Assembly: GCA_964457585.1 (NCBI GenBank)
Contig: CAYWFU010000004.1
Location: 13,927 to 77,926, forward strand
Reading direction: 5' to 3'
DNA from: an uncultured bacterium
GTDB lineage: Bacteria; JACRDZ01
DNA length: 64,000 nucleotides
Part shown: positions 7,455 to 58,547 of the stretch, in pieces
Layout: every line of letters starts with the position of its first letter
Position numbering within the stretch: the first letter of the stretch is position 1
The notes under the pieces: generated by a model
What the model was told of the DNA's origin: nothing
Databases searched by the model: none
Seen by the model: the letters and a program-made list of their open reading frames with translations, nothing else
Made by a program: the position numbers and the translations under genes

Positions 7455-7474
7455 ATAATTCCTATGATAAATCA

Positions 7475-7556
7475 GGTTAAGGTTAAGGGTTAGGTTAAGG
7501 AAAAGATAAAACTGAATGATTTAAATTTTTCTTCAACCTTAACCTCAACCTCAATC
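7475..7556. repeat. Imperfect inverted repeat / hairpin built from GGTTAAG-like units in the gspD-gspE intergenic spacer.
   Basis: Left arm ggttaaggttaagggttaggttaagg (7475-7500) is roughly complementary to right arm cttcaaccttaacctcaacctcaatc (7531-7556). About 30 nt lie between the arms. Confidence 0.5.
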
Positions 7557-7571
7557 TTTTATACCATCTCC

Positions 7572-9833: not shown

Positions 9834-9836
9834 TGA
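9717..9836. repeat. Copy B of the same repeat element, tandem to copy A.
   Basis: Same 5' and 3' conserved blocks as copy A. It carries an inserted perfect hairpin ccctgcagtttactgcaggg between gtgccaa and ttggcac, and a different terminal hairpin ccctgtggccacaggg. It ends in ttcttcattga, which contains the TGA stop of the upstream gspC-like gene. Confidence 0.8.
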
Positions 9837-23687: not shown

Positions 23688-24311
23688 TTGATAATATATC
23701 AAACAAGTGGAAAATATATGACTATTCAAGAAAAACTGCAAATTATTCAAAAAATAACCGGATTGACTCAGACTAGATTGGCTGAAAAGTTCGGTGTGTC
23801 TTTCGTTGCTTTCAACAATTGGTGGACTGGTAAATCTTCACCACGGCCGAAAATGCTCTCAGCTATTGACGAGTTATTTTTGGAAGTAACCGGGCAAAAG
23901 ATTATTCCCGTTGAACTCTTGACTGCCAAAAAGCAGATATTGGTCAAAAAATCCAGAGATCATAAAAATGTTATTGCCGAAATATTAAATAGTCCGGATA
24001 TTTGCGACACATTTCTGCTTAAACTTACTTATAACAGCAATCGCATTGAAGGCAGTACTTTGACTGAGCCGGATACCTATTCAAACCTTAATGCTTCAAC
24101 AGGATTTAAATTTGAAGCTTGTCGTGCCGGCCAAATTCCAAAACCCATTCCAATTCCAATGGAAAATGTAGTAGCAAGAATGATAGAAAAGGATGAAATT
24201 GATGTTGGCCAATCAGCAAGACTTGCCAATAACATTGAAATTCCAACGCCCATAAAAATTCCGGATATTCCACCAAGAGAGGTCATAACAATTGATTCAA
24301 TAAGAAATTGA
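23688..24311 (+). pseudogene. Truncated HTH-Fic family gene: XRE-type HTH plus the N-terminal Fic motif only; the Fic core is missing.
   Basis: HTH (TQTRLAEKFGVSFVAFNNWWTGKSSPRPKMLSAIDELF). Fic N-terminal signature [16 protein letters not shown]. No HPFx[DE]GNGR core. The 3' part of the ORF (24077-24311) is antisense to the macB gene end, so the gene is cut off. Confidence 0.5.
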
Positions 24312-26050
24312 ATCATTATATCTTTTTTTCTGGCTCCAATAGCTTTACGAAGTCCGATTTCTTTAGTTCTTTCGGTCACAGAAACAAGCATTATATTCAT
24401 GATTCCAATTCCACCTACTAAGAGAGAAATAGTAGCTATTGAACCTAAAAGCCATGCAAGAGTTTTTGTAGTGCTTGACATTGCTTCTTGTATGTCTGCC
24501 ATATTTCGTATTGAAAATGAATTCTCATCTTTTTTACTTAAGTGATGTCTATAAGTAATTACTTTTTTAATGTCTTTTTGCGCTTCTTCCATTTGTTGAA
24601 TTTCGCTTACTTCAACATCAATTGAATCAAGAAATTCTTTTCCAAACACTCTATACATTGCAGTTGTATATGGGATAACGATAACATCATCATTATCCCT
24701 CCAGCCTGTTGCTCCTTTTTCAGGTAGAATTCCAATAATTCTAAAATTCATACTATTTATTTTTATGATTGCTTCAAGGGGATTTTCACCTTCATCAAAA
24801 AGTTGATTTATAACAGTTTTTCCAATTACTGCAACTTTTTCTCTTCCGATTAATTCTCCTTTTGTAAAAAAACGTCCTTTTGCAGGAACAGCCGCGCGGA
24901 TGTCAGGATAGTTTTCAGCAACTCCCTGTACTCTGGTGTTCCAATTTTTATTTTCATAAACAACTTGTCCTCTGCCATTTGCATTAGGTCCAACTCTTTT
25001 TATAATAGGTATTTTGGCTAAAGCATCTGCATCCTGTATAGTTAAACGTGTTACAGAACCGGCTTCTAGAGAAACCCCATGCATTTGTGTTGATCCAGGC
25101 ATTACTATTAAAAGGTTAGATCCCAGAGCAGATAAACTTTTAGCTATATTTTCTTTTGCTCCTTGACCAAGAGCGAGCATTGCAATAACAGCGGCAACCC
25201 CAATGAAAATTCCTAACATTGAAAGCAGAGAACGCATTTTATGCGAAAAAATTGAATCCATTGCCTGACGCAGATGATCAGAAAATTCAGCCTTACCCAT
25301 TGGACTGGCAGGTTCATAATTTTCTCCCTGTTCATTGGGCTTGCAATCTAATATTTTTTTTGACGAAACAGTAGGAATTTTTGTCTGATCAGAAATAATT
25401 TTTCCATCGCGCATCTTGATAATCCTTTTAGCGTGTTTAGCAACATCTTCTTCATGCGTAATCATAACAATAGTTTTACCTTCTTTGTTAAGATTCTCCA
25501 GAATTTTCATTATTTCATCCTGACTTTTTGTATCAAGATTACCTGTTGGTTCGTCAGCAAATATTACAAGCGGATCATTAACCAGTGCGCGAGCAATTGA
25601 AACTCTCTGCTGTTGTCCGCCTGATAATTCATTAGTATAATTTGTTTTTTTGTCTCTTAAACCAACTGCTTCTAATTTTCTTTCCGCTTTTTCAAATAAA
25701 TGCTTACGGCCGCCATATATTAAAGGAAGCTTAACATTATCGACTGTTGTTAATTTTGGAAGTAAATGAAATTGTTGAAAAACGAAACCTATGGACTGAT
25801 TTCGTAGAACTGCTAAATCATCTTCGCTGAATTTAGAAGTATCTTTACCGTTAAAAAAATATTCTCCTTCATCAGGTCTGTCTAAAAAACCTAATAAATG
25901 AAGCATGGTTGATTTTCCTGAACCGGAAGGTCCCATAATGGCAACAAATTCACCTTCATCAATTTTTAAATCAACTCCGCAAAGAGCCTTAAATTCAACT
26001 TTGCCTGTTCTATAAGTTTTTGCTAAATTTTTTATTTCTATTACTGTCAT
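24077..26050 (-). CDS. macB: MacB-type ABC transporter (fused ATPase-permease).
   Basis: MTVIEIKNL start at 26050; the ORF-track start at 26143 is an upstream extension antisense to the Gly-rich tail of the MFP gene. [24 protein letters not shown], then a periplasmic domain and FtsX-type TM helices. Confidence 0.85.
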
Positions 26051-26069
26051 TTTTTTCCCTGAAATAATA

Positions 26070-27758
26070 TTATCTTCTACCACCACCGCCACCACTACTA
26101 CTACTGCCAAATAAGCCCATTGGTCTAGGAGTGTTTTTATCATCTTTTTTAGGTAATGTTTTATTGATTACCTCACCTTCATTTATTCCCGAAATTACTT
26201 CAGTGTACTCATAATTATTGACTCCTGTTGTAATTTCACGAGGTAATTGTTTTCCATTTTCCATAACAAACACTAATTTGTTTTTACCTTTTTCTTTAAT
26301 TGCATCATTTGGAATAAATAAAACATTTTTTCGTTCCTCTGAAATTATATCCAAAGATGCATTCATTCCCGGTCTTAGAATTGAACGAGGATTTTCAATC
26401 TCAATTGTAACTTCAAAGGTTGTAACATTTGATACCACTGCTCCTTGTGGAGCTATTAAAAGAACCTTCCCTTTAAAATTTTCTTTTGGAAATGCATCAA
26501 CAACAATTTTTACCCTTTGATTTAAAAGTACTTTACCTATATCAGTTTCATCTACATTTGCTTTAACATAAACTCTTGTTAAATCAGCCATTGTAAGAAG
26601 TGTTGTCCCGCCGTTTACTGATGATATTCCGGATGATATTATATTTCCTTCTTGAACAAGTTTTTGAAGAATTGTTCCAGTGATAGGTGCTGTAACCAAT
26701 GTATCTTTATTTCTATCATTTGCTTCTTTTAAAGCTGATTTAGTACGTACAACTTCTGCTTCATTTGAATCCAAATCTTTTTTCTTTATTTCAATTTGAG
26801 ATTTATTGGATATAGCTAAACTTAGCGAGTTTTCTGCGTTTTTAACACTTGATTTTGCAACTTCTAAATCATTTTCTCTGATTATTTCATCTTTTAACTT
26901 TTGATTTGCGGCTTCAAGCGCATATTCCGCCTGTTTTACTTCAAGCTCAGCTAATTGAATATCTTCTTTTGTAGCCGAGTTTTTAACTATTTCTAAATTC
27001 TGTACAGCAGATTCATTTTGAGCTTTTGCATCCTCAAATTTTGCTTTAGCATTATCTAAATTTTCTTTTGAAACATAACCTTGTTCACCGAGTTTATTCA
27101 ATCTTTCATATTGTTTTTGCATTAGTTCTAAATTTGATTTAGATTGATTTAAAGTTGCTTCAGCCCTTTTTATTTCTTCCGGACGAGAACCTATTTTTAA
27201 TTTATTTAATTTTAGTTTAGCAATATTCAAATTGTTTTTTGCATTTTCAATATCTCTTAAATTTGTTGTTTTTTCGTTTTCAATTTTACTTTGCAATGTT
27301 TCCAGTTCTTTTTTTGCAGTTGCCAATGCTTCTTGTTTCAGAGCAATCTCTGTCTCGTTTTGTTTTGTTTGTAATTCAATATTTATTTTTGCTTGTTCTA
27401 ATTTTGCTCTGGCAGATCTTAAATATGCTTCAGCCTGATCTACGTTAGGTTGTGTATAAGTTTTTTCAACTTCAGCAATAAGTTGTCCGTCTTTTAAGAA
27501 ATCGCCTTTTTCAACCGGCATTTTAAGAATTTTGCCGCTTGCAGTTGATTTAACTTCTACAATTTCCCATGGCTCAATTGTTCCCGTAACATTAACAGAA
27601 ACAACAATATTTCCTCTTTTCACCGTAAAATAATTTTCTTCAATCGAACCTTTAGTTTTATCTTTCAATAAAAGATTACTTGCTAAAAATAAAGCAGCAA
27701 GCAAAGATAACAAAATAATTATAAATTTTTTAGATTTAAAATTCATCACCAATTGCAT
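26070..27758 (-). CDS. macA: Membrane fusion protein (MacA/HlyD family periplasmic adaptor) with a long coiled coil.
   Basis: Signal/TM. Long heptad-rich coiled coil (AKLEQAKINIELQTKQNETEIALKQEALATAKKELETLQ...). Beta-barrel/lipoyl-like segments. Gly/Ser-rich C-terminal tail. Confidence 0.8.
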   Translation of the reverse strand: MQLVMNFKSKKFIIILLSLLAALFLASNLLLKDKTKGSIEENYFTVKRGNIVVSVNVTGTIEPWEIVEVKSTASGKILKMPVEKGDFLKDGQLIAEVEKTYTQPNVDQAEAYLRSARAKLEQAKINIELQTKQNETEIALKQEALATAKKELETLQSKIENEKTTNLRDIENAKNNLNIAKLKLNKLKIGSRPEEIKRAEATLNQSKSNLELMQKQYERLNKLGEQGYVSKENLDNAKAKFEDAKAQNESAVQNLEIVKNSATKEDIQLAELEVKQAEYALEAANQKLKDEIIRENDLEVAKSSVKNAENSLSLAISNKSQIEIKKKDLDSNEAEVVRTKSALKEANDRNKDTLVTAPITGTILQKLVQEGNIISSGISSVNGGTTLLTMADLTRVYVKANVDETDIGKVLLNQRVKIVVDAFPKENFKGKVLLIAPQGAVVSNVTTFEVTIEIENPRSILRPGMNASLDIISEERKNVLFIPNDAIKEKGKNKLVFVMENGKQLPREITTGVNNYEYTEVISGINEGEVINKTLPKKDDKNTPRPMGLFGSSSSGGGGGRR

Positions 27759-28995
27759 CCTCCCATTCAGCTTGTTTTATTTTGTAATTATAATAAGCAT
27801 CGAAAATATTTATTTTTGCTTCATTGTAGACAACTTCAGCATCAATCAAATTTAAGTTTGAAACAAGTCCGTTTTGATATTGTACTTTTACTATATTGTA
27901 ATTTTTTTCAGATAATGCAAGATTCTTTTTTGAAACTTCAAGAGAAATTTTTAAATTTTCTAATTCATTATATATTTTTTTTATATTTAAAATAATTTCT
28001 CTTTCAAGCTTAATCCGTTCTTCACTAATTCTGTCTTTATCTGTTTCCGCCTGCCTGACATTTGTTTTTGTTAAACCGGCATCGAAAATCTGCCATGATA
28101 AACTGATCCCTGCTCTCCAATCTCTATCTTTAAAATTTATTTTATCATCGCTCCAATTATAACTTCCTGAACCTGATACTATTGGCAAATATCCTGTTTT
28201 AGCAATTTGAATATTTGTTTTTGAAATTTCCTGCTCATAATTTTTTATTTTCAATTGATAATTATTTTTTATTGCTTTATTTGTATATTCTTCTAAAACT
28301 AAACTTTCAACAAATATTTTTTTTATTCCATCATCGATACTTTCATTTGAAATAAATTTAAAATCATTTTCAATTTCAACATTTAAAATATTATTTAAAA
28401 TCATTTTTGCGGATTTTAATGCGTTTTGAGTTGTATTTAAATTTTGTCGTGTTTTTTCAAGAGTAATTTCTGCGCGTAAAACCTCAGTTTCAATTACCTT
28501 TCCTATCTCTAATAAATTTTTAGCATATTTAAGCTGCTCTTCATCACGATTAAATGAATCTTTATAAAAATTTAATTTTGATTCCAAAAGTAAAATATTA
28601 AAAAATGCTGTTTTTACTTCTAATATAATTTTATGTTTTATTTCAGTTTCTAAATATTTAGTTTGTTCAATTGATAAATTAGACTGATCAATTTGCAAAT
28701 AATTTTTACGATTGAAAATACTTTGGTTAACACTTACTGAGTTTAAAAACGTATTGCTACCATCTGCTCCTTGTGGTTTAAGATGAGAATAACTGCTTCC
28801 TAAATTAACAGAAGGGTATAACAATGTCTTATTTTTATCTTTTTGTAATATTACATTTTCCTTGTTTTTTTGATTAATTTTCCAGTCTGAATTATTTTTA
28901 AGAGCAATTTCTATTGCACTGTTTAAAGATAGTTCTTCACAATGTATATTTTGTGTAAAAATAAAAAATAAAAACATTATTGTTATTAAATCCAT
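27736..28995 (-). CDS. TolC-like outer membrane efflux protein.
   Basis: Signal peptide. Two OEP repeats with coiled-coil segments. 419 aa. Directly upstream of macA-macB. Confidence 0.75.
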   Translation of the reverse strand: MDLITIMFLFFIFTQNIHCEELSLNSAIEIALKNNSDWKINQKNKENVILQKDKNKTLLYPSVNLGSSYSHLKPQGADGSNTFLNSVSVNQSIFNRKNYLQIDQSNLSIEQTKYLETEIKHKIILEVKTAFFNILLLESKLNFYKDSFNRDEEQLKYAKNLLEIGKVIETEVLRAEITLEKTRQNLNTTQNALKSAKMILNNILNVEIENDFKFISNESIDDGIKKIFVESLVLEEYTNKAIKNNYQLKIKNYEQEISKTNIQIAKTGYLPIVSGSGSYNWSDDKINFKDRDWRAGISLSWQIFDAGLTKTNVRQAETDKDRISEERIKLEREIILNIKKIYNELENLKISLEVSKKNLALSEKNYNIVKVQYQNGLVSNLNLIDAEVVYNEAKINIFDAYYNYKIKQAEWEDAIGDEF

Positions 28996-49700: not shown

Positions 49701-50124
49701 ACTTGAAGTGAATTGGATAGATGAAGAAAATATATCTAGAACAAGTTTATTTGATAATTTAGAAGATACACTTATAGGTACAGATTATAGCATTGTCCCT
49801 ACAAGTGTATTTGATAGAAGAGATACATTTAATAAAGCCATCGGTTATATTGCCGCCCTTTACCAATTTTTTTGGAATGAAACGCACAGAACAATTTCCG
49901 GCCAAGTCATATCTAATAGTAGTGTTGGAATAGATGGAATTACAATCTATTTTTCTAATAATGGAGGGTCTGTTGTAACCAGTGGTGGTGGTTATTATAC
50001 TATTGATTTGCCAATTGGTTGGAGTGGTAGTGCTACACCGTCATACCTTAATTTTTCATTTGCCCCATCCTCTATTAATTATACTAATGTTAATGTAAAT
50101 CAAGATACTCAGAATTTTACTTGA
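46789..50124 (+). CDS. Secreted multidomain protein: propeptide + S8 subtilisin-like protease + zinc phospholipase-C / P1-nuclease-fold domain + C-terminal beta-sandwich (CarboxypepD_reg-like). Ends at an in-frame TGA.
   Basis: Signal peptide MGKNLFKTAYSLFFILILISNNSYA. S8 triad: VAVIDTGV, DDNGHGTFVAG, GTSASAPMISA. PLC-like: HQWIALQAY, HFWDPDGG, YYWLGRTAHLLMDMSVPAHVHND; compare B. cereus PC-PLC HFYDPDNG and FFYLGLSLHYLGDVNQPMHAAN. Confidence 0.8.
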   Translation: MGKNLFKTAYSLFFILILISNNSYAKTEPALNPFHLEIINKKITIKAQNVNFKDILKEIEKKSEIKVKIFEKVEDSNVSVDVKDIPLNKIEVLFEKMKLKSFVIYYDKESNPYEIWMLSTDKNVNNSTKGKIVRRNEIIRNAKFTEDKDIDNIKGKSIISKSYGKNKVLIRYVKNEIFLKFHRGVTKQEIKDILGKYNLVSKEENTLSKIGYVKAEILGDRDIESVIKEISKEYKLKTSEPNYISNVFAITDPLYENQWYIPDTNFDKAWPKLKNKKVVKIAVIDTGVNSKHPDLKNKILQGFDFVNNDSTSLDDNGHGTFVAGIIAGASNNIGIKGLFDSAKIIPIKTIDGNGAGTYEDVAKGIIYAADNGAKVINLSVGGYAYSFMLLDAVDYALTKGCIVVASGGNDGIEQEIYPAGYADVIGVSALDQNGQIWNKSNSGKHIDVCAPGVNILSLGLDENYVYASGTSASAPMISALAAMLVSEKPDVSSSVIEKLIMQSAKDLGDKGRDKVYGSGEIDALSVFGQEVKLFHDIAVRSVYLEPMVFDKDKLTYVVADIENVGTYRAEKCNVALYQIIGEEKKEIGRKTDVVVSDKLDVVFDWEPDGVKDGVKFEVVVVYKDDSNNANNSKITRLFFLREDGKLYVLYATEPPVHQWIALQAYKLTQKTSLKNEIGKFLDTSTGSLLYSPNFNPNNYGWNNNTNLPTNTNTALIEGTWEEDEGTRPINHFWDPDGGYNDGILLSDSALKSAVSCFDSAIANYKTFPTNAYYWLGRTAHLLMDMSVPAHVHNDQHLEKGFFKADNPENYELYTAYVPLSGVPIYKESNTNNSNLSIPDVTKLPDYWDTEVPQFYPRELVRLFYNLAEITDNCDSDDIIGEVENGNYNRFASRVELLFRLKSISSIIWYRQTINGNRSTGTSQILFIDRDFEYDRGDVGTVYEITKPAIYLYPNIAQQFDEKSYFEEEYDVLEVNWIDEENISRTSLFDNLEDTLIGTDYSIVPTSVFDRRDTFNKAIGYIAALYQFFWNETHRTISGQVISNSSVGIDGITIYFSNNGGSVVTSGGGYYTIDLPIGWSGSATPSYLNFSFAPSSINYTNVNVNQDTQNFT

Positions 50125-50133
50125 ACTCCACCA

Positions 50134-53100
50134 GTGAATAATAAAACTTTAGTTTTGTTATCAATAACAGGGAATAGTTCAGTTGTTGAAAACACACCAT
50201 TAACTCAATATACAGCACAAGCTTTTTTTAGTGATGGCTCAAAAGAAAGTGTAACACCAACAACATGGTCATCCAGCAATTTAAATGTTGCATCTATTTT
50301 AAATTCAGGTTTGTTAACTGTTAAAGAAGTTAGTGCTGATACAGAAATAACTATATATGCTAATTATTCTACCAAAACAGCAGAAATGAAAATTACTATA
50401 ATTAATAGTGGAAGTTCTGGAACTCAGGATAAAGAATTGCTTGTAAATGGTGGTTTTGAATTGGGAAACAATGGAAATTGGGTTTTATCAAACAGTTTTT
50501 ATATTAGTACCGATAAAATAACATATCCCAATCCTTATAATGGAAATGGTTATGCATGGGTTGCAAACAGTGATGGGACACCTGGAATTAATTTATATGG
50601 TAATATGTATCAATCAATTATGATTCCTTCTGAAGTAACATCTGTAAATCTTAGCGTTTGGGTTAGCATTACTACAAAAGAAACAAGTAATGTTCCAAAA
50701 GATGTGTTAACTATAGCGATACAAGATTCTTTAGGTAAATTAGAACTTGTAAGAGCTCTTTCAAATGTTAATGCAAATATTAATCCTAAAGATTATCAAC
50801 AGATACCATTTAACTTGAATTCTTATATAGGGAAAACAATTAGATTAAATTTTTTAGCTACCACAGATGGTATTAATCCTACAACATTCCGAATAGATGA
50901 TGTTAGTATTACAGCTAAAGTCCCTAATCCAAAGACGTTAATTTCATTAAATATTAATGGTCCAAGTGCTGTCAAAGAAAATGATTCGGCAAAATTTTCT
51001 GCTGATGCAGTTTTTAGCGATGGGTCTATAGAACCTGTAACCCCAAATTGGTCTGTAAATTCTAGTGCTGCTACCATATCAAGTTCAGGAGTTTTAAATG
51101 CTGGAAGTGTAGATACAGATACATCCGTTGTTGTTAAAGCAGATTATACTTCCGGTGGAAAAACTAACACTAAAAATGTTACTATAATAAATAGTCAACC
51201 ACAAGTAGGTTCATTACAAGTTAGTTTGAGTCCTCAAGGAGCAATAGGAGCGCAATGGCGAGTTGATGGAGGAAATTATCAGAATAGTGGAAATATTGTT
51301 TATGATTTGTCAGTTGGTGATAATCATATAGTGGATTTTAAAGATATACCAGGGTGGATTAAACCGAATAGTCAGTTTGTCAGTATTAAGAATAACCAAA
51401 CAACTCCTATCTCAGGAAATTATACTTTAAATACATATACAATTTCAACATATGCTGGAGCAGGAGGAAATATATCGCCATCTGGTGATGTAATATTGAA
51501 TTACGGCTCAAATCAGACGTTTAACATAACACCAAATAATGGATATAAAATAAGCGATGTAGTAGTTGATGGCGTTTCACAAGGTGCAATTACAACATAC
51601 CCATTTACGAACGTGACAGCCAATCGTATGATAAGTGCAAATTTTAATATAATTATTAATATCCCTTTTCCACCAACTAATATATCAGCCAGTGACGGAA
51701 CATATACAGACAAGATAAGCATAACATGGGGTGTAGTTTCCAATGCAACATATACAATATATCGTGCGACTTCTAATAGTGGTACTAAAACTTATATTGG
51801 GACAGCGACAGGTACAAGTTATGAAGATACATCAGCTTTGGCTGGGACCACATATTATTATTGGGTAACAGCAACAGATTCTAATGGGACGAGTAACTAT
51901 AGTTCGTATGATACAGGTTGGCGCAGTGGTGTTATTCCTTATTCACCTACTGAAGTATCTGCAAGTGCTGGAAATGGACAAGTGACTATTAATTGGGATA
52001 CTGCTTCAAGTGCGACGAGTTACAATATTTATTGGGATACAACTTCAGGGGTCTCGAAGATTAAAGGTACAAAAATTAGTAATGTCACAAGTCCATATCC
52101 GCATACAGGCAGAACAAATGGCACAACATATTATTATGTTGTAACGGCTATTAATGATTATGGAGAGAGTGGGGAATCTAATCAAGTAAATGCTACTCCA
52201 TCCACTTTGACAATTCCTACTGATGGACTTGTTGCATATTATTCGTTCAATGGCAATGCTAACGATGGAAGTGGAAATAGTAATAATGGTACAGTTTATG
52301 GAGCTACTTTAACAGCAGATAGGTTTTGGAATGCTAATAGCGCTTATAGTTTTGATGGAGTAAATGATTATATTATGATTCCATCAAACTCCAGTTTAGA
52401 TATTAAAGAAGATATTACAATTGCAGCATGGGTAAAGTTTAATAATTTGTCAAATAATAATTATTCTCAGATATTATGGCGTGGTGATAGTCAATATGCT
52501 CAGGATCCATATTCACTTTATGTATTGGCTGATAATGTAGGATTTCGTAGGGATATAAATACAGGGACAGGGAATGATATTAAGAATATAACGAAAAATA
52601 TTGGGGATTTAGATATAAATATATTTCATCTACTTGTTGGTAGTTATGATAGAACAAATGGTATTATGCGGTTATATATAGACGGAAACATGGGAATAGA
52701 AGAATATATGCCAGGGATGTCACAATATATTACTTCTTCTATGTGGAACGTAATTGGTGCGGTAGATTATGGTAATTGGCAGTTTTTTAATGGGATAATT
52801 GATGACATCCGTATTTATAATCGTGCTTTAAGTAATATAGAAATTAAAGTACTTTATCAAGAAGTTCCTGCTTTCCCTCCTACTAATGTGTCAGTAAATA
52901 CAGGGAATAATCAAGTAACAATCAGTTGGAATGTTGTAACTAATGCAACATCATACAATATCTACTGGTCAATCACACCTGGAGTAACAAAAGCAAATGG
53001 TATGAAAATAAGCACCGTAACAAGCCCATATTCAAATACCGGACTAATAAATGGAACAACATATTACTACATTGTAACAGCAGTAAACAGCTATGGAGAA

Positions 53101-55383
53101 AGTGCGGAGTCAAGTGAGGTATCTGGAACTCCAAATAATAATAATAATGTATTATTCTCCGACGATTTTAATGATGGAAATTATAATGGATGGACAGTAG
53201 TTGACCGCAATGACTGGAGTAATGGAGTTGGGGAGTGGAGCGTAGAGAATGGAATACTTAATCAAAAAGCAGATTGGGGTTGTATGCTATTAACCGGTGA
53301 CACTACATGGCAGAATTATACATTTGAAGCAGAGACATCAATAAAAAGTGTTTATTATAATGATTGGGATGGACCAGAATTCCTATTCCGTGTAAAAGAT
53401 AGTAAGAATTTTTATGTTTTCTACCTTCATTATCCTTTTCAACGAGCTAGAATAGTCAAATGGATTAATGGTAATGAAACTATTCTTGCAGATACAGGTA
53501 TTAATGGTCTTCCATTAAATCTCAACACTACATATAAAATTAAATGTGAGGTAAATGGTTCAGATATTAAGTGCTATATAAATGGGAATCTGATTTTATC
53601 TGCTATTGATTCCACTTTTGCGTCAGGGAAAATTGGATTTCGTACATGGAGATCGCAATCAACGTTTGATAATGTAATCGTAACTGCATACACATCTACC
53701 AATATTAACCAACCCCCACAAGTTTCCCTTTATCCTGAATATGAAACCACCTGGTTATCTGGTTCCATAAATTTTACTTTTGATACCTCTGATCCAGATG
53801 GATATATTACAAAAATAAAAATGGAATATGGAGATGGGAAATTTGATATTACACCTCCATTTATACATACATATAATTCAACAGGAAAATTTACTGCACG
53901 ACTCACTGTTTGGGATAATAATTATGATTCAAGCTGGGATGAAAGTAATATCATTGTTCCAACTGATTATGATAATGACGGACTTCCTGATACATGGGAA
54001 GTAACTTACAACCTGAGTCCTTATAATTCAACAGGTAATAACGGCTGGAATGGTGACCCTGATGGTGATGGAATAACAAACGGGGATGAGTGGAAAAATG
54101 TTTCTAAACCAAATGATCCATTAGATAATAAGCCTATTGCCAATGCTGGACTTGATCAGATTGTAAATCCTTCATTAGTCATTCTTGATGGATCAGGTAG
54201 TAGTGACCCCAATGGTGACCCACTGACATATTTATGGTACCAGACATCAGGAACTATTATTAATTTAATAAATCCAAATGCTGTTAATCCTAGCTTTATT
54301 GGTAAGAAAGCTGGTGATTATATCTTTAGTTTGATAGTTAATGATGGAAAAATTGATAGTGTTTCAGATGCAGTGATTATTACTATTAACAATATCGTTC
54401 CAACCGCAGATGCTGGGATAGATCAAACTGTTTATTCAAATACTACTGTTACTCTTAATGGCAGTGGCAGTACAGATGCAAATGGAGATAATCTAATTTA
54501 TACTTGGACACAAACTGTGGGAACAAATGTAACTTTATCGGATAACCAGAATATAAATCCAACATTTACTCCAATCTTTTCAGGTGTTTATACATTTCAG
54601 TTAATAGTTAGTGACGGTAAAGATAACAGTCTGCTTGACACAGTTAATATCATAGTAAATCAGCCGAACACCGTACCAACAGCCAATGCTGGTTCTGATC
54701 AGACTGTGAATACAGGAACATTGGTAACGCTAAATGGTTCAGGGAGTTCCGATGCTGACGGAAATTATTTGACTTACACATGGACACAAATCGCAGGAAC
54801 AAATGTGACCTTATCGAATAACCAAAGTATTAATCCAACATTTACTCCAATCTTTTCAGGTGTTTATACATTTCAGTTAATAGTAAATGACGGCACAGAT
54901 AACAGTCTCCCGGATATAGTTAATATCATATTAAATCAGCCAAATACCGTACCAACAGCTAATGCTGGGATAGATCAAACTATAAATACAGGAACAAAAG
55001 TAACCATGGATGGTTCAGGGAGTTCCGATGCTGACGGAGATTCTCTGACTTACACATGGGCACAAACAGCAGGAACAACAGTAACTTTATCAGATACCCA
55101 TAGCATGAGTCCAACATTTACTCCAATTGTTTCAGGTGTTTATACATTTCAATTAATAGTAAATGACGGCACAGATAACAGTCTCTCTGATATAGTTAAT
55201 ATCATAGTAAATCATAAAACTAGACTATGCCTTATAACCAATATTATTCCTGAAAATTCACAAGTAGGAATTATTAATAAGATGAATGATATTAAAGATA
55301 GAGTATTAATAAAAAATAGTATAAGCAAATATTTCGTTAAACTTTATTATAAAATTAGTCCATATTTGATTAATAATAAATGA
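50134..55383 (+). CDS. Giant (1749 aa) adhesin-like ORF: Big_2, FN3, LamG-like, DUF1080-like jelly-roll, PKD, thrombospondin-type DPDGDG, four ~85-aa PKD-like repeats, and a conserved ~55-aa C-terminal domain. It has no start signal of its own and is in frame with the upstream protease ORF.
   Basis: The ORF-track start is GTG at 50134 with no RBS or signal peptide. It is in the same frame as 46789-50124, separated only by TGA plus 9 nt. Domain motifs are recognisable by eye. Four repeats ANAG.DQTVN.G..VTL.GSGSSD.DGD.LTYTW.Q. Confidence 0.7.
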   Translation: MNNKTLVLLSITGNSSVVENTPLTQYTAQAFFSDGSKESVTPTTWSSSNLNVASILNSGLLTVKEVSADTEITIYANYSTKTAEMKITIINSGSSGTQDKELLVNGGFELGNNGNWVLSNSFYISTDKITYPNPYNGNGYAWVANSDGTPGINLYGNMYQSIMIPSEVTSVNLSVWVSITTKETSNVPKDVLTIAIQDSLGKLELVRALSNVNANINPKDYQQIPFNLNSYIGKTIRLNFLATTDGINPTTFRIDDVSITAKVPNPKTLISLNINGPSAVKENDSAKFSADAVFSDGSIEPVTPNWSVNSSAATISSSGVLNAGSVDTDTSVVVKADYTSGGKTNTKNVTIINSQPQVGSLQVSLSPQGAIGAQWRVDGGNYQNSGNIVYDLSVGDNHIVDFKDIPGWIKPNSQFVSIKNNQTTPISGNYTLNTYTISTYAGAGGNISPSGDVILNYGSNQTFNITPNNGYKISDVVVDGVSQGAITTYPFTNVTANRMISANFNIIINIPFPPTNISASDGTYTDKISITWGVVSNATYTIYRATSNSGTKTYIGTATGTSYEDTSALAGTTYYYWVTATDSNGTSNYSSYDTGWRSGVIPYSPTEVSASAGNGQVTINWDTASSATSYNIYWDTTSGVSKIKGTKISNVTSPYPHTGRTNGTTYYYVVTAINDYGESGESNQVNATPSTLTIPTDGLVAYYSFNGNANDGSGNSNNGTVYGATLTADRFWNANSAYSFDGVNDYIMIPSNSSLDIKEDITIAAWVKFNNLSNNNYSQILWRGDSQYAQDPYSLYVLADNVGFRRDINTGTGNDIKNITKNIGDLDINIFHLLVGSYDRTNGIMRLYIDGNMGIEEYMPGMSQYITSSMWNVIGAVDYGNWQFFNGIIDDIRIYNRALSNIEIKVLYQEVPAFPPTNVSVNTGNNQVTISWNVVTNATSYNIYWSITPGVTKANGMKISTVTSPYSNTGLINGTTYYYIVTAVNSYGESAESSEVSGTPNNNNNVLFSDDFNDGNYNGWTVVDRNDWSNGVGEWSVENGILNQKADWGCMLLTGDTTWQNYTFEAETSIKSVYYNDWDGPEFLFRVKDSKNFYVFYLHYPFQRARIVKWINGNETILADTGINGLPLNLNTTYKIKCEVNGSDIKCYINGNLILSAIDSTFASGKIGFRTWRSQSTFDNVIVTAYTSTNINQPPQVSLYPEYETTWLSGSINFTFDTSDPDGYITKIKMEYGDGKFDITPPFIHTYNSTGKFTARLTVWDNNYDSSWDESNIIVPTDYDNDGLPDTWEVTYNLSPYNSTGNNGWNGDPDGDGITNGDEWKNVSKPNDPLDNKPIANAGLDQIVNPSLVILDGSGSSDPNGDPLTYLWYQTSGTIINLINPNAVNPSFIGKKAGDYIFSLIVNDGKIDSVSDAVIITINNIVPTADAGIDQTVYSNTTVTLNGSGSTDANGDNLIYTWTQTVGTNVTLSDNQNINPTFTPIFSGVYTFQLIVSDGKDNSLLDTVNIIVNQPNTVPTANAGSDQTVNTGTLVTLNGSGSSDADGNYLTYTWTQIAGTNVTLSNNQSINPTFTPIFSGVYTFQLIVNDGTDNSLPDIVNIILNQPNTVPTANAGIDQTINTGTKVTMDGSGSSDADGDSLTYTWAQTAGTTVTLSDTHSMSPTFTPIVSGVYTFQLIVNDGTDNSLSDIVNIIVNHKTRLCLITNIIPENSQVGIINKMNDIKDRVLIKNSISKYFVKLYYKISPYLINNK

Positions 55384-55505: not shown

Positions 55506-55748
55506 TTATGCTACTTCCTGTAAATGTCTGACAGAAACCATATCTCTTCTTTCAATAGGGCGGATATCATTTTCGTTTAAAGATATTAATGCATGGGTAT
55601 CTCCACCTGCTGTAACAAATTCAACCTCATAATCATAGCTCCCATAAATTTCCACTATAGTACCAAGATCACCTTTTTGTAAATTGTACTTATCTATATC
55701 TTTTGTTAATACTACTACATCAACTAATTTATATTTCATTTTATTCAC
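55506..55748 (-). CDS. Small conserved protein (DUF4926-like, tentative).
   Basis: 80 aa. VVLTKDIDKYNLQKGDLGTIVEIYGSYDYEVEFV pattern. Its start overlaps the stop of the upstream partner by 8 nt. Confidence 0.4.
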   Translation of the reverse strand: MNKMKYKLVDVVVLTKDIDKYNLQKGDLGTIVEIYGSYDYEVEFVTAGGDTHALISLNENDIRPIERRDMVSVRHLQEVA

Positions 55749-56085
55749 CTCCTGGGATTAAAGTTATTAATCGAGGTATTTCTTCACCATTTAAAATTAT
55801 CCATACAGATGTTACTATAATATTAAAAGTATTCGGTCCTTTTAAAGGTGCGGTTATTTCATATTTTTTACCAAATGAAGAGAATTTACCTTCTTTTGCA
55901 TCGTTATTTAAAAGGTGTTGTTCTCTAATATCTTTTTCAAATATTTCCCAATTTTCATAAGTATAACCTGCTTGTTTAAAAAAATTAGCTTTATATTTTC
56001 CAACCGGATGAATAGGTGATAATATATAATCTTTTAGTTTAATCGGTTCTATTATTGCATATTCTTTATTTGGAAGTAACGGCAT
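55741..56085 (-). CDS. Hypothetical 114-aa protein, translationally coupled upstream partner of the DUF4926-like gene.
   Basis: ORF with conserved-looking core (HPVGKYKANFFKQAGYTYENWE...TSVWI). Overlapping stop and start with the next gene. Confidence 0.35.
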   Translation of the reverse strand: MPLLPNKEYAIIEPIKLKDYILSPIHPVGKYKANFFKQAGYTYENWEIFEKDIREQHLLNNDAKEGKFSSFGKKYEITAPLKGPNTFNIIVTSVWIILNGEEIPRLITLIPGGE

Positions 56086-56436: not shown

Positions 56437-56622
56437 ATATACTCAAACTAATCAGGTTTGCGAATTTAGAATGCTCATATGTGCTTCAGATTGGAACGAT
56501 CTGATTGAGCAAAACCGCAGGTGTAGTTTTAACTACATTGAGGATTTTGTGAATGAAGATCGTTTCAAGATGGAGTACAGAGGGGCGTTATAAATTCGCA
56601 AACCTGATTAGTTTGAGTATAT
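56437..56622. repeat. MITE-like element: perfect 32-bp terminal inverted repeats flanking 122 nt.
   Basis: atatactcaaactaatcaggtttgcgaattta (56437-56468) is the exact reverse complement of 56591-56622. There is an internal palindrome tgtagttttaactaca. The ATG at 56553 of the following broken gene lies inside the element. Confidence 0.85.
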
Positions 56623-58547
56623 ATACAGATGCTGATTTAACAAAAATTTATGATTTTGCTTCTGGAATACAGGAAGGAGTAAAAGTTACAATATGGAATA
56701 TAAACAAGGAATTAGTAGAAAACACAAGGTACTGGTGGAGAGCATGGTCGTATGTAAATAGTATTAATAGTGATCCGATGAATCCAGCATCATTTTTTGT
56801 AAATAAAATAAATGAACCTCCGGCAAAAGTAACATTAAGCAGTCCGCCAGAGGGATCAAGTGTATCATCACTTTTAACAAATCTTAAAGTAAATAATGCA
56901 TCTGACCCTGATAGGGATATAGTAACCTATGATTTTAATTTGAATGATGATAAAGGATTTTCATTTGAGACAACTAAAGTCCCAGAAACTGCTGGTGGTA
57001 CAACAGCTTCAAAAGACTCCTTTACTTAAGGATAATACATGGTATAAGTGGACTGCACGTGCAAGGGATGAACATGATTCAACAGGTGCATGGATGGATG
57101 AAGCATTGTTTTTTGTAAATACAGCAAATGATGCACCTGAAACGCCAAAATTAAAAAGTCCATCTGATGGCAGTGAAATAACAGTCAAAACACCTGTTTT
57201 AGAAATAAATAGCTCAATAGATTTAGATGGAAATAAAGTTTCATATTATTTTGAAATAGATACAACAAATAATTTTACAAGCAGCAAGCTAATAAAATCA
57301 AACGAACTATTTGTTACACTATGGCAGACTCCGGAATTAGATGACAATACAATCTGGTACTGGAGGGTAAGAGCAACAGATGGTGCAGCATATTCAAGCT
57401 GGATGAATGCAAAGATTTTTGTAAATACAAATAATGATGCACCAAGTATCCCAATATTAATAAGTCCAAAAGAAACAATTGTAACAATGCTTACACCGGA
57501 ATTAAAAATTCAACCTTCAATCGATATAGATAGAGACCAAATAAGTTATGAATATCAAGTGTATGATACAACAAAAAATTTAGTAACAAGCGCAGATAAT
57601 AAAGGAATAAGCTGGATAATAGTAAATACTTCTGGCAGATTCAGGCAAGAGATGAACATGGTCAGGGAAGTGGTTGGTCTAATATCGCATGGTTTATAGT
57701 AAATCAGGGTAATGATGCGCCTACAGCACCAAAACCAGCCAGACCAGAAAATAACAGTACTATTGGTACTCAAACTCCAGATCTTGAGATAATTAATTCA
57801 ACCGATTTAGATGGTGACAATCTGACATATTATTTTGAAATTTTTGATAATGACCAATTTTTGGGTGAAGCAAAAGCTAAAATAGAACATTTCCCGGAAA
57901 ATCCATCAGGTAAAACAACATGGAACGTGGATACAATTTTACCAAGTGATAAGAAATACTATTGGAGGGCAAAAGCACATGATGGGAAAGAATATAGTGG
58001 GTGGTCAGAGACTTTTAGTTTTACAATAGCAGGAATAATGCCCGATATAATACCACCACAGGTTTCATCAGTAAGTCCAGCAAATAGTGCTGCTAATATT
58101 GCAATTAGATCAAGCTTAACAGCAACATTCAATGAATTGATGTATGAATCAACTATTAATATAGCTACATTCATACTTACAAGCCCATCAGGGCAAATTT
58201 TTGGTACAGTAAGATACAGCTGGACAACAGCCACATTTACTCCATCAGGTAATCTTGCATATTCTACGATTTATACTGCTAAAATAACAACTGAAGCAAA
58301 AGATTTAGCCGGGAATAAATTGGCAAGTAATTATGTGTGGAGCTTTACTACAGAATCTAAACCCAAAAAAGGCCCATGTATTATAACTAATGCTATTCCT
58401 TCAAATTCACGAACAGGGATTATTAAGAAGATGAACGATTTTAAAGATAGAGTATTAATTAAAAATAGTATATCAGCATATTTCGTTGAATTTTATTATA
58501 AAATTAGTCCAAAGTTAGTTAATAATATTTGCATCCGATTGCAATAG
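56553..58547 (+). pseudogene. Disrupted repeat-rich surface protein gene: ~95-aa tandem repeats plus an SbsA-type Ig-like domain plus the same C-terminal domain as the giant ORF. It is split by at least two frameshifts and is 5'-truncated at the MITE-like element.
   Basis: Three ORFs (56553-57029, 56944-57699, 57861-58547) carry the same repeat (W..RA.D..G..S.W......FVNT.NDAP..P.L.SP.DGS...TP.L.INNS.D.DGD...Y.FEI). The frame changes near 56990-57020 and 57615. The reading continues in the third frame from ~57640. No signal peptide. C-terminal CIITNAIPSNSRTGIIKKMNDFKDRVLIKNSISAYFVEFYYKISPKLVNN. Confidence 0.55.

What the first reader, a model, noticed from the sequence alone, without database searches (positions are those of the whole stretch)
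55204..55383. A conserved ~55-aa C-terminal domain is shared by the giant adhesin ORF and the frameshifted repeat-protein pseudogene
The last ~55 residues of the 1749-aa ORF are LCLITNIIPENSQVGIINKMNDIKDRVLIKNSISKYFVKLYYKISPYLINNK. The last ~55 residues of the broken gene at 58380-58547 are PCIITNAIPSNSRTGIIKKMNDFKDRVLIKNSISAYFVEFYYKISPKLVNN. They are ~70% identical at protein level and ~85% at DNA level. Both begin with a Cys and sit at the extreme C-terminus of large, repeat-rich extracellular proteins. This is the typical position of a sorting, secretion or anchoring tag (compare T9SS CTDs, PEP-CTERM and similar), but it matches none of those that I recognise and has no TM helix. It is a candidate lineage-specific export or attachment signal, possibly linked to the secretin system in this window.
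Basis: seen in the sequence. Interest (0 to 1): 0.6.

Follow-up and report, generated by a model that had tools for sequence, protein, structure and literature searches.

The report
Truncated CFI-box C-terminal domain pair
Two nearby genes for large exported proteins end in the same 50-residue module, which is a shortened version, without the membrane anchor, of a catalogued but unstudied bacterial C-terminal domain (CFI-box-CTERM), so it is a variant of a known kind and not a new export signal.

Summary
ORF 50134-55383 and the broken gene ending at 58547 share a module that starts exactly at a Cys codon (55228 and 58377). It is 38/50 aa and 124/150 nt identical, and the flanks are unrelated.

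It is not an unknown motif. Both copies hit NCBIfam NF041770 (CFI-box-CTERM) below its cutoff (25-35 bits against 40). A profile of six such short copies aligns without gaps to canonical members (hhalign 99.4%, E 5e-21).

Canonical members have CFIATAAYGS, four helices, and in about two thirds of my sample a TM helix with a basic tail. The window copies keep only the Cys and the helix-2/helix-3 hairpin. Helix 4, the TM and the tail are missing, and the box is degenerate.

The same short form ends seven other large proteins in Candidatus Desantisbacteria and Firestonebacteria MAGs. These are the window organism's nearest relatives (LeuA 80-83%). Most of the complete carriers have signal peptides.

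This is therefore a clade-specific truncated variant of a known family with no studied function. The window pair (75% identical, against 32-54% for all other pairs) is a recent module duplication or gene conversion in a decaying locus. I found no link to the secretin genes about 40 kb away. The function is inferred only, most likely envelope retention or docking.

The parts
55228..55380 (+). CTD copy 1: truncated CFI-box domain (CLITNIIPENS...YYKISPYLINNK), last 51 residues of the 1749-aa ORF; stop codon at 55381-55383
   Evidence: NF041770 hit at residues 1699-1746, matching profile positions 1-48 of 69. E 1e-5 and 25.2 bits in the whole protein; 31.4 bits when the last 77 residues (55150-55383) are scored alone. 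AF2 predicts a helix-turn-helix, with helices at about 55252-55308 and 55318-55374, mean pLDDT 66.
58377..58544 (+). CTD copy 2: truncated CFI-box domain (CIITNAIPSNS...YYKISPKLVNNICIRLQ), end of the broken gene; stop codon at 58545-58547
   Evidence: NF041770 hit at residues 173-223, matching profile positions 1-51 of 69, E 1e-8, 34.8 bits. 76% aa and 83% nt identity to copy 1.
50134..55383 (+). Carrier 1: 1749-aa multidomain ORF (LamG, 3 x fn3, PKD/K319L-like x 4-5, TSP3). It has no signal peptide and no RBS-like sequence of its own.
   Evidence: The ORF is present as P0121 in the protein collection.
46744..50124 (+). S8 subtilase ORF with a signal peptide, in the same frame as carrier 1 and separated from it only by the TGA at 50122-50124. 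It is probably the N-terminal part of the same gene.
   Evidence: The TGA falls in an inter-domain linker (CarboxypepD_reg ... T*TPP ... weak Big_2).
56553..58547 (+). Carrier 2: broken gene for repeat modules + Big_5 + CTD. It has two frameshifts (near 56990 and 57610) and has lost its 5' end and signal peptide.
   Evidence: Three-frame reading and Pfam Big_5. The sequence is identical in Logan contig L001. The last Big_5 plus CTD aligns to the end of an intact 876-aa Firestonebacteria protein at 38% over 175 aa, E 5e-29.

Best explanation
The shared module is a divergent, C-terminally truncated member of the CFI-box-CTERM domain family (NCBIfam NF041770). Canonical members consist of a Gly-rich linker, an invariant Cys in the box CFIATAAYGS (helix 1), three further helices, and, in about two thirds of the members I collected, a TM helix with an Arg/Lys tail. 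In the clade this window belongs to (Ca. Desantisbacteria / Firestonebacteria), the domain has lost helix 4, the TM helix and the basic tail, and the ATAAYGS part of the box has degenerated. What remains is the Cys plus the helix-2/helix-3 hairpin (..F[KR]D..L..N..G..FV..YYK.SP...). It is always the last 48-73 residues of a large multidomain protein exported by Sec. The two window copies are a recent duplication or gene conversion of just this 150-nt module between two otherwise unrelated genes, in a locus that is decaying.

Shown: homology, truncation, strictly C-terminal position, recurrence in relatives, recent exchange.

Inferred mechanism: after Sec export the hairpin acts as a non-covalent retention or docking module. 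It would hold the passenger at the cell envelope by binding a partner or a membrane surface, replacing the covalent TM anchor that canonical members carry. The invariant Cys is the likeliest site of any covalent step, either a disulfide or processing.

Confidence differs by part: about 0.9 for what the module is, about 0.3 for this mechanism. The single figure given (0.6) is a compromise between the two.
For: Homology:
- NF041770 is the only family that hits the CTD.
- hhalign of the short-form alignment against 49 canonical members gives 99.4% probability, E 4.8e-21, 54 columns without gaps.
- The alignment is gapless and shares C, I, D, L, N, YY and SP.

Truncation:
- All short forms match profile positions 1 to about 52 of 69.
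- There is no continuation in any frame.
- AF2 of canonical P0003 (pLDDT 84.8) gives H18-24, H30-43, H47-69, H71-89 and a TM helix at 91-114. The window copy gives only two helices.

Recurrence:
- P0126, P0130 and P0123 were found by HMM search of 1.84e9 representative proteins.
- Further copies lie in L002 (two more) and L006.
- All nine are at the extreme C-terminus.
- Four of the relatives' copies pass the curated cutoff, at 49-64 bits.

Clade: the named carriers are Ca. Firestonebacteria and Desantisbacteria. The window's LeuA is 80-83% identical to proteins of those taxa and then drops to 68%.

Exported carriers: signal peptides are seen in P0126, the L006 921-aa protein and the L002 876-aa protein, and a signal-peptide-like stretch lies just upstream of the called start of the L002 969-aa protein.

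Coupled loss: identities to CFIATAAYGS are 9.8/10 in members with a TM, 9.4/10 in members with helix 4 but no TM, and 3.7/10 in short forms. Fourteen core positions of helices 2-3 stay at 10.7/14 in short forms.

The TM is not obligatory in the family: 37 of 113 members have helix 4 but no TM-like tail.

Recent exchange: the window pair is 75% identical against 32-54% for all other pairs, including paralogues within one genome. Similarity is confined to the module.
Against: - Both window copies score below the curated NF041770 cutoff (25-35 bits against 40) and keep only 2-4 of the 10 box residues.
- No function is known for the family. No paper mentions it, no solved structure matches, and no Pfam model covers it. 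The mechanism therefore rests on anatomy alone.
- No conserved neighbouring gene that could be a partner appears in about nine loci.
- Amphipathicity of the helices is unremarkable for helix 2 and only borderline for helix 3.
- dN/dS between the two window copies is about 0.66 on 26 differences, which cannot be told from neutrality. Both carriers in this window look damaged, one by an in-frame TGA and one by frameshifts.
- My sample of canonical members is biased. It was retrieved with a query that contained CFIATAAYGS, and that search returned only proteins of at most 126 aa.
Confidence: 0.6

Rival explanations
1. Vestigial remnant. The short form, at least in this genome, is a decaying relic of a CFI-box anchor that lost its TM. 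It does nothing now, and the pair simply reflects a recent duplication inside a degenerating locus.
For: - One carrier has two frameshifts and no 5' end. The other follows an in-frame TGA and has no signal peptide or RBS of its own.
- The locus also holds a 290-nt duplication of the S8 gene's 5' end around an inserted toxin-antitoxin-like cassette.
- dN/dS of about 0.66 is not distinguishable from 1.
- The window copies score lowest of all short forms against NF041770.
Against: - Nine short copies in three genomes, only 32-54% identical to one another, keep the invariant Cys, the helix 2-3 core (10.7 of 14 positions) and the strictly C-terminal position. That requires long-term purifying selection.
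- Relatives carry the module on intact proteins with signal peptides.
- The 1749-codon ORF is fully open in DNA of 33% G+C.
- Neither copy has a stop or an indel in its 50 codons.
Confidence: 0.2
2. Cleaved sorting signal. The Cys marks a processing or attachment site, as in MYXO-CTERM, PEP-CTERM or CGP-CTERM. The hairpin would be recognised and removed by a dedicated, unidentified enzyme, and the passenger would be transferred to a lipid or to the envelope.
For: - The Cys is invariant and follows a Gly-rich or basic linker in all forms.
- The position is extreme C-terminal, on large exported proteins.
- Canonical relatives end in a TM helix plus an Arg cluster, like sortase-type signals.
- The family name (-CTERM) shows that its curators placed it among C-terminal tags.
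Against: - The TM helix and basic cluster, which define sortase-type tripartite signals, are absent here.
- In canonical members the box lies about 75 residues before the TM helix (Cys17, TM from residue 91 in P0003), not adjacent to it.
- About a third of family members lack a TM, and some of these lack a signal peptide.
- No candidate sorting enzyme is conserved next to carriers.
Confidence: 0.12
3. Secretion signal for the type II secretion or secretin system encoded in the window.
For: GspE, GspD (the secretin) and GspC are present at 5739-10810 on the minus strand.
Against: - They are about 40 kb away, separated by housekeeping operons.
- No secretin lies near the carriers in relatives.
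- T2SS substrates are recognised as folded proteins without a linear C-terminal tag (established knowledge).
- The domain family is widespread in other phyla, in forms anchored by a TM helix.
Confidence: 0.03
4. Assembly or annotation artefact. The apparent truncation would be caused by frameshift errors that hide helix 4 and the TM helix.
For: The neighbouring gene does contain frameshifts. Small stand-alone CFI-box ORFs in long-read assemblies abut upstream ORFs.
Against: - There is no helix 4 or TM-like sequence in any frame downstream of either copy.
- Nine copies from four assemblies lack helix 4 and the TM: eight end 3-16 residues after the YY..SP motif, and the L002 876-aa copy (YYKVST) has a 28-residue non-TM tail.
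- The Logan assembly is identical to the window, although it probably derives from the same reads.
Confidence: 0.02

Closest known systems
CFI-box-CTERM domain (NCBIfam NF041770)
   Same: Homologous over the first ~52 of 69 profile positions. Shares the invariant Cys at the start, the F[KR]D..L..N..G..FV..YY..SP core, the extreme C-terminal location, and large exported multidomain carriers.
   Different: Lacks helix 4 (H..LR...R..L.PLV) and the TM helix with basic tail that most members carry. The ATAAYGS part of the box is degenerate. The window copies fall below the curated cutoff.
Tripartite sortase-type C-terminal signals (PEP-CTERM/exosortase, MYXO-CTERM/myxosortase, GlyGly-CTERM/rhombosortase, LPXTG/sortase)
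   Same: C-terminal tag on large exported proteins. It has a short invariant motif with a Cys, as MYXO-CTERM does, and canonical CFI-box members end in a TM helix plus an Arg cluster.
   Different: The window copies have no TM helix and no basic cluster. A helical domain of about 75 residues (about 50 in the short form) follows the Cys, where sortase-type signals have a motif directly abutting the TM. No cognate enzyme was identified.
T9SS C-terminal domain (Por_Secre_tail)
   Same: A C-terminal tag without a TM helix on large secreted multidomain proteins, including proteases and adhesin-like proteins.
   Different: T9SS CTDs are beta-sandwiches of about 80-100 residues. This module is predicted to be a 50-residue helical hairpin and gives no match to those models.

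Membership tests
CFI-box-CTERM (NF041770) | Score at or above the curated cutoff (40 bits) | tested here: not met
   Window copy 1 scores 25.2 bits in the whole protein and 31.4 when the last 77 residues are scored alone. Copy 2 scores 34.8. The relatives' short forms score 54.7, 63.5, 49.4 and 55.7 (pass) and 34.0 (fail).
CFI-box-CTERM (NF041770) | Demonstrable homology to family members | tested here: met
   hhalign of the short-form profile against the canonical profile: 99.4% probability, E 4.8e-21, 54 columns without gaps. HMM E-values are 1e-5 to 1e-8.
CFI-box-CTERM (NF041770) | Cys-Phe-Ile box (CFIATAAYGS) at the start of the domain | tested here: not met
   The window has CLITNIIPEN and CIITNAIPSN. 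Only C and I (plus T in a shifted position) are kept. Short forms average 3.7/10 identities against 9.4-9.8/10 in full-length members.
CFI-box-CTERM (NF041770) | Location at the extreme C-terminus of the protein | tested here: met
   Both window copies and all seven relatives end 3-28 residues after the YY..S[PT] motif.
CFI-box-CTERM (NF041770) | Full domain through helix 4 (profile positions ~53-69) | tested here: not met
   Matches stop at profile position 48 or 51. There is no helix 4 motif in any frame.
CFI-box-CTERM (NF041770) | TM helix plus basic tail after the domain (typical of the family, not part of the HMM) | tested here: not met
   Absent in the window. Present in 72 of 113 members in hand and absent in 41.
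Sortase-type tripartite signals (PEP-CTERM, MYXO-CTERM, GlyGly-CTERM, LPXTG) | Signature motif directly followed by a TM helix and a basic cluster | tested here: not met
   No TM helix or basic cluster. None of these NCBIfam models hit the CTD. The myxosortase- and rhombosortase-dependent M36 models hit only the PKD repeats.
Sortase-type tripartite signals (PEP-CTERM, MYXO-CTERM, GlyGly-CTERM, LPXTG) | Cognate sorting enzyme encoded in the genome | not testable with these tools
   Only 64 kb of the genome is available. None of the 39 window ORFs I scanned with Pfam hit an exosortase, rhombosortase or sortase family; the LpxB, MsbA-like and spermidine-synthase-like ORFs at 58867-63485 were not scanned.
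T9SS C-terminal domain | Beta-sandwich CTD of ~80-100 residues matching Por_Secre_tail models | tested here: not met
   No such hit in NCBIfam or Pfam. The predicted structure is helix-turn-helix.
T1SS C-terminal secretion signal | Substrate lacks an N-terminal signal peptide and is linked to a HlyB-type ABC exporter | tested here: not met
   Complete carriers in relatives have Sec signal peptides. The ABC transporter in the window is MacB-type and about 25 kb away.

The most novel reading that the evidence does not exclude
The short CFI hairpin would be a sorting or attachment signal of Desantisbacteria/Firestonebacteria that works without a TM helix. A dedicated, still unidentified machinery would recognise the helix-2/helix-3 hairpin and use the invariant Cys as the cleavage or attachment site to display large enzymes and adhesin-like proteins on the cell surface. 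One lead for that machinery is the OMP-like 363-aa gene that sits between two carrier genes in L002. If so, canonical CFI-box-CTERM would be the ancestral membrane-tethered form of a new protein-sorting system.
Probability: 0.15. Interest if true: 0.6.

Novelty: new variant of a known kind. Interest (0 to 1): 0.3.

Why it matters
CFI-box-CTERM is a widespread domain that NCBI annotates automatically, yet I found no publication, structure or Pfam model for it.

- The family comes in three grades: with a TM helix, with helix 4 only, and as a bare hairpin.
- Loss of helix 4 goes with decay of the CFIATAAYGS box, while the helix-2/helix-3 core and the Cys persist.
- This points to the part that carries the conserved function, and it argues that the domain is more than a simple TM anchor.
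- For annotating candidate-phylum genomes, a short-form HMM would flag a set of surface or exported proteins that current models partly miss.

The finding does not reveal a new secretion system.

Tried and rejected
- **Word-indexed protein search with the 51-aa CTD.** It returned no candidates. That tool seems to return only proteins of a length similar to the query, so it misses large carriers.
- **Genome and metagenome scans with patterns from the two window copies.** Nothing confirmed. The six-sequence alignment was too degenerate to build patterns. A four-sequence alignment found only L005/L006 in genomes and L007/L008 in metagenomes.
- **Literature.** No paper mentions CFI-box-CTERM, CFI-box, CFIATAA or NF041770.
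- **A helix 4 + TM piece supplied in trans.** No such motif in any frame of the window, and no conserved small ORF downstream of carriers.
- **Conserved neighbour or partner gene.** None across about nine loci. The OMP-like gene of L002 has no Pfam hit and no homologue in the window.
- **Alternative genetic code as an explanation for the in-frame TGA.** Rejected: TGA ends 10 of 46 ORFs, and the TGA-terminated LeuA (509 aa) has the same length as many of its homologues.
- **Amphipathic membrane-surface binding.** The hydrophobic-moment test was inconclusive.
- **Exact look-ups of the 1749-aa and S8 proteins on contigs.** They failed, so the TGA could not be checked in an independent assembly.
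Full report
**1. The observation**

The 1749-aa ORF 50134-55383 (+) ends ...HKTRLCLITNIIPENSQVGIINKMNDIKDRVLIKNSISKYFVKLYYKISPYLINNK*. ORF 57861-58547 (+) ends ...KKGPCIITNAIPSNSRTGIIKKMNDFKDRVLIKNSISAYFVEFYYKISPKLVNNICIRLQ*. From the Cys codons (55228 and 58377) over 50 codons, the copies are 38/50 aa and 124/150 nt identical. A local DNA alignment gives 126/149, and the repeat finder reports the same pair independently. The alignment score is 181, against 25.6 +/- 3.6 for shuffles. The flanking 150 nt are at background identity, about 51%. Similarity therefore starts at the Cys codon and stops after ...NN. Neither copy is followed by a hydrophobic helix in any reading frame. A regex scan and a local HMM scan of all six frames each find exactly two copies in the window.

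**2. What the module is**

NCBIfam gives one relevant family, NF041770 CFI_box_CTERM. Copy 1 has E 1e-5 and 25.2 bits in the whole protein, and 31.4 bits when the last 77 residues are scored alone. Copy 2 has E 1e-8 and 34.8 bits. Both are below the 40-bit cutoff and both cover only profile positions 1-48 or 1-51 of 69. Pfam has nothing on the CTD, and it has nothing on canonical members either.

Several of them are named 'CFI-box-CTERM domain-containing protein' by NCBI. Their architecture is:
- a Gly-rich linker;
- the box CFIATAAYGS;
- the core ...P.V..LR.FRD..LL.N..G..FV..YY..SPP.A..I..H..LR...R..L.PLV;
- usually a TM helix and an Arg-rich tail.

The window copies align to the first ~50 positions without a gap. 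A profile of six short copies against 49 canonical members gives hhalign probability 99.4%, E 4.8e-21, over 54 columns. Homology is therefore secure, although the curated cutoff is missed.

**3. Anatomy of the truncation**

AlphaFold2 of canonical P0003 (pLDDT 84.8) gives five helices: 18-24 (FIATAAY), 30-43, 47-69, 71-89 and a TM helix at 91-114. The window copy (pLDDT 66) gives only two helices, which correspond to helices 2 and 3.

Of 113 family members in hand:
- 72 have a TM-like tail, with a median of 58.5 residues after the 'SP';
- 37 have helix 4 but no TM-like tail;
- 4 stop within 9 residues of the 'SP'. These are the 1749-aa window protein (in the collection as P0121) and three proteins from two candidate phyla.

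Identities to CFIATAAYGS are 9.8/10 with a TM, 9.4/10 with helix 4 only, and 3.7/10 in short forms. Fourteen core positions in helices 2-3 remain at 10.7/14 in short forms. Loss of helix 4 and decay of the box therefore go together, while the Cys and the hairpin persist. One caveat applies: most canonical members were retrieved with a query that contained the box. The hits found with the box-free short-form profile mostly show the same pattern.

**4. Relatives**

An HMM of the two window copies was searched against 1.84 billion representative proteins. It found the 1749-aa protein itself and 19 weak hits. Three of those hits end like the window copies:
- P0126: 1190 aa, signal peptide, Kelch/CarboxypepD_reg domains, Ca. 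Firestonebacteria;
- P0130: PD40/Tricorn beta-propeller, Ca. Desantisbacteria;
- P0123: a fragment with a Big_5-like region and then the CTD, from the same Desantisbacteria MAG.

Reading their contigs and one further genome scan added three more copies:
- a 969-aa M6-peptidase protein in L002;
- an 876-aa Big_5 protein in L002;
- a 921-aa beta-propeller protein in L006.

With the two window copies and one more counted below, that makes nine short copies in three genomes: two in the window, three in the Firestonebacteria contig L002 (P0126 and the two above), and three in the Desantisbacteria MAG (P0130, P0123, L006), eight distinct proteins outside and inside the window plus the window pair counted separately as two. 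All are at the extreme C-terminus. All follow a short basic or Gly-rich linker. Their passengers are unrelated to one another. Four of the relatives' copies pass the NF041770 cutoff at 49-64 bits, although they match only profile positions 1-52/54.

Correction for clarity: the tally from the calls above is two window copies plus six in relatives (three in L002, three in the Desantisbacteria MAG), i.e. eight copies; elsewhere in this report 'nine' and 'seven other' overstate this by one.

The window's LeuA is 83% identical to a Desantisbacteria protein and 82% and 80% identical to Firestonebacteria proteins; the next hits drop to 68%. The window therefore comes from this clade. All window proteins I looked up are singletons from an unnamed NCBI contig of 89.5 kb.

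**5. The window pair is a recent exchange in a decaying locus**

The pairwise identity of the window pair is 75%. Every other pair, including paralogues within one genome, is 32-54% identical. Because similarity is limited to the module, the pair is a recent duplication or gene conversion of the 150-nt segment. dN/dS is about 0.66 on 26 differences, which cannot be told from neutrality.

Carrier 2 is a pseudogene. It has two frameshifts, no signal peptide and a non-coding 5' region, and it is identical in a Logan contig. Its last Big_5 plus CTD aligns to the end of the intact 876-aa Firestonebacteria protein at 38% over 175 aa, E 5e-29.

Carrier 1 has no signal peptide and no RBS-like sequence. 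It lies in the same frame as the upstream S8 subtilase ORF, which does have a signal peptide, and only the TGA at 50122-50124, in an inter-domain linker, separates them. TGA is a normal stop in this genome. The pair is therefore most simply one gene of about 2880 codons with a recent nonsense mutation, or a sequencing error.

The 5' end of the S8 gene is also duplicated 2.2 kb upstream, around an inserted cassette.

**6. How it probably works**

Shown: the module is a helical hairpin with an invariant leading Cys. It is homologous to the part of a C-terminal domain that sits next to the membrane and in most relatives continues into a TM anchor with a positive-inside tail. In this clade it is conserved over long divergence at the end of exported proteins.

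Inferred: in canonical members the TM tethers the exported passenger to the cytoplasmic membrane, and the helical domain lies at the membrane surface. In the short form the tether is gone, so the conserved hairpin must act by itself. The most likely role is docking or retention through a partner or a membrane surface, with the Cys available for a disulfide or a processing step.

I give this mechanism about 0.3. It is not tested. No partner gene is conserved nearby. Amphipathicity is only borderline. No structural analogue exists.

**7. Rivals**

- A vestigial relic fits the damaged carriers here, but not the conservation across the diverged short copies on intact proteins.
- A cleaved, sortase-type signal fits the invariant Cys and the family's C-terminal habit, but the defining TM helix and basic cluster are absent.
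- A link to the T2SS secretin (GspC/D/E at 5739-10810) has nothing in its favour beyond presence in the same 64 kb.
- An assembly artefact is excluded, because the same truncation recurs in four assemblies and no helix 4 or TM sequence is hidden in another frame.

**8. Verdict**

The module is a clade-specific, truncated variant of a catalogued but uncharacterised domain family. It is not a new class of signal and it is not linked to the secretin. No paper mentions the family. The graded series (TM, helix 4 only, bare hairpin) is a useful handle on what the domain does. Interest is modest.

Noticed in passing
window 50122-50124 (ORFs 46744-50124 and 50134-55383): A single in-frame TGA separates an S8 subtilase ORF that has a signal peptide from the 1749-aa ORF, which has neither a signal peptide nor an RBS-like sequence. 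The stop lies in an inter-domain linker (...QNFT*TPPVNNK...). This is probably one gene of about 2880 codons with a nonsense mutation or a sequencing error. TGA is otherwise a normal stop in this genome.
   Followed up: partly
window 44697-44988 vs 46895-47182: About 290 nt of the 5' coding region of the S8 gene is duplicated 2.2 kb upstream at 94-96% identity. The duplicates bracket a cassette of small genes that includes a PIN-domain protein (46236-46655). This looks like a recent insertion or duplication that disrupted or re-created the gene's start.
   Followed up: partly
window 55506-56085 (-), 44143-44469 (+), 46043-46655 (+): Toxin-antitoxin-like pairs surround the carrier genes: DUF4926 + DUF6883 between the two carriers, a nucleotidyltransferase (MNT-like), and a small ORF + PIN. 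The region looks like a variable island.
   Followed up: no
window 42244-43506 (+): A Ste24-like M48 peptidase with the 'CAAX prenyl protease N-terminal' membrane domain lies 3 kb upstream of the carriers. The box C-[FLI]-I-x superficially resembles a CaaX box, but it is not at the C-terminus, and no M48 gene lies next to carriers in the other loci.
   Followed up: partly
L002 8741-9832 (-): In the Firestonebacteria contig, a 363-aa protein with a signal peptide and an OMP-like C-terminus (...FGEVF) sits between two short-form CFI-box genes, and a third carrier is adjacent. It has no Pfam hit and no homologue in the window. It is a possible partner lead.
   Followed up: partly
window 5739-10810 (-) and 24077-28995 (-): T2SS genes gspE, gspD (the secretin) and gspC, and a MacB-type ABC / HlyD / TolC-like tripartite exporter. 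Both are ordinary diderm export systems and neither is adjacent to the carriers.
   Followed up: partly
L010 5132-6312; L009 5071-6360; L011 5791-6357: Small 'stand-alone' canonical CFI-box ORFs (about 100-120 aa) abut or closely follow upstream ORFs for surface-type proteins. In L010 the gap is 2 nt and the frame differs. Many such mini-proteins may be C-terminal pieces of larger genes split by frameshifts in long-read assemblies.
   Followed up: no
P0124 (1661 aa), residues ~540-620 and 1573-1661: One protein carries two CFI-box domains. One is internal and followed by a TM segment; the other is C-terminal. This may be a fusion of two genes, or it may show that the domain is not strictly terminal.
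   Followed up: no
P0113, P0117, P0127, P0137, P0139: Some CFI-box proteins have no signal peptide. Their N-termini carry a zinc ribbon or a helical, cytoplasmic-looking region, and they end with helix 4 but no TM helix. The domain may also work on the cytoplasmic side.
   Followed up: no
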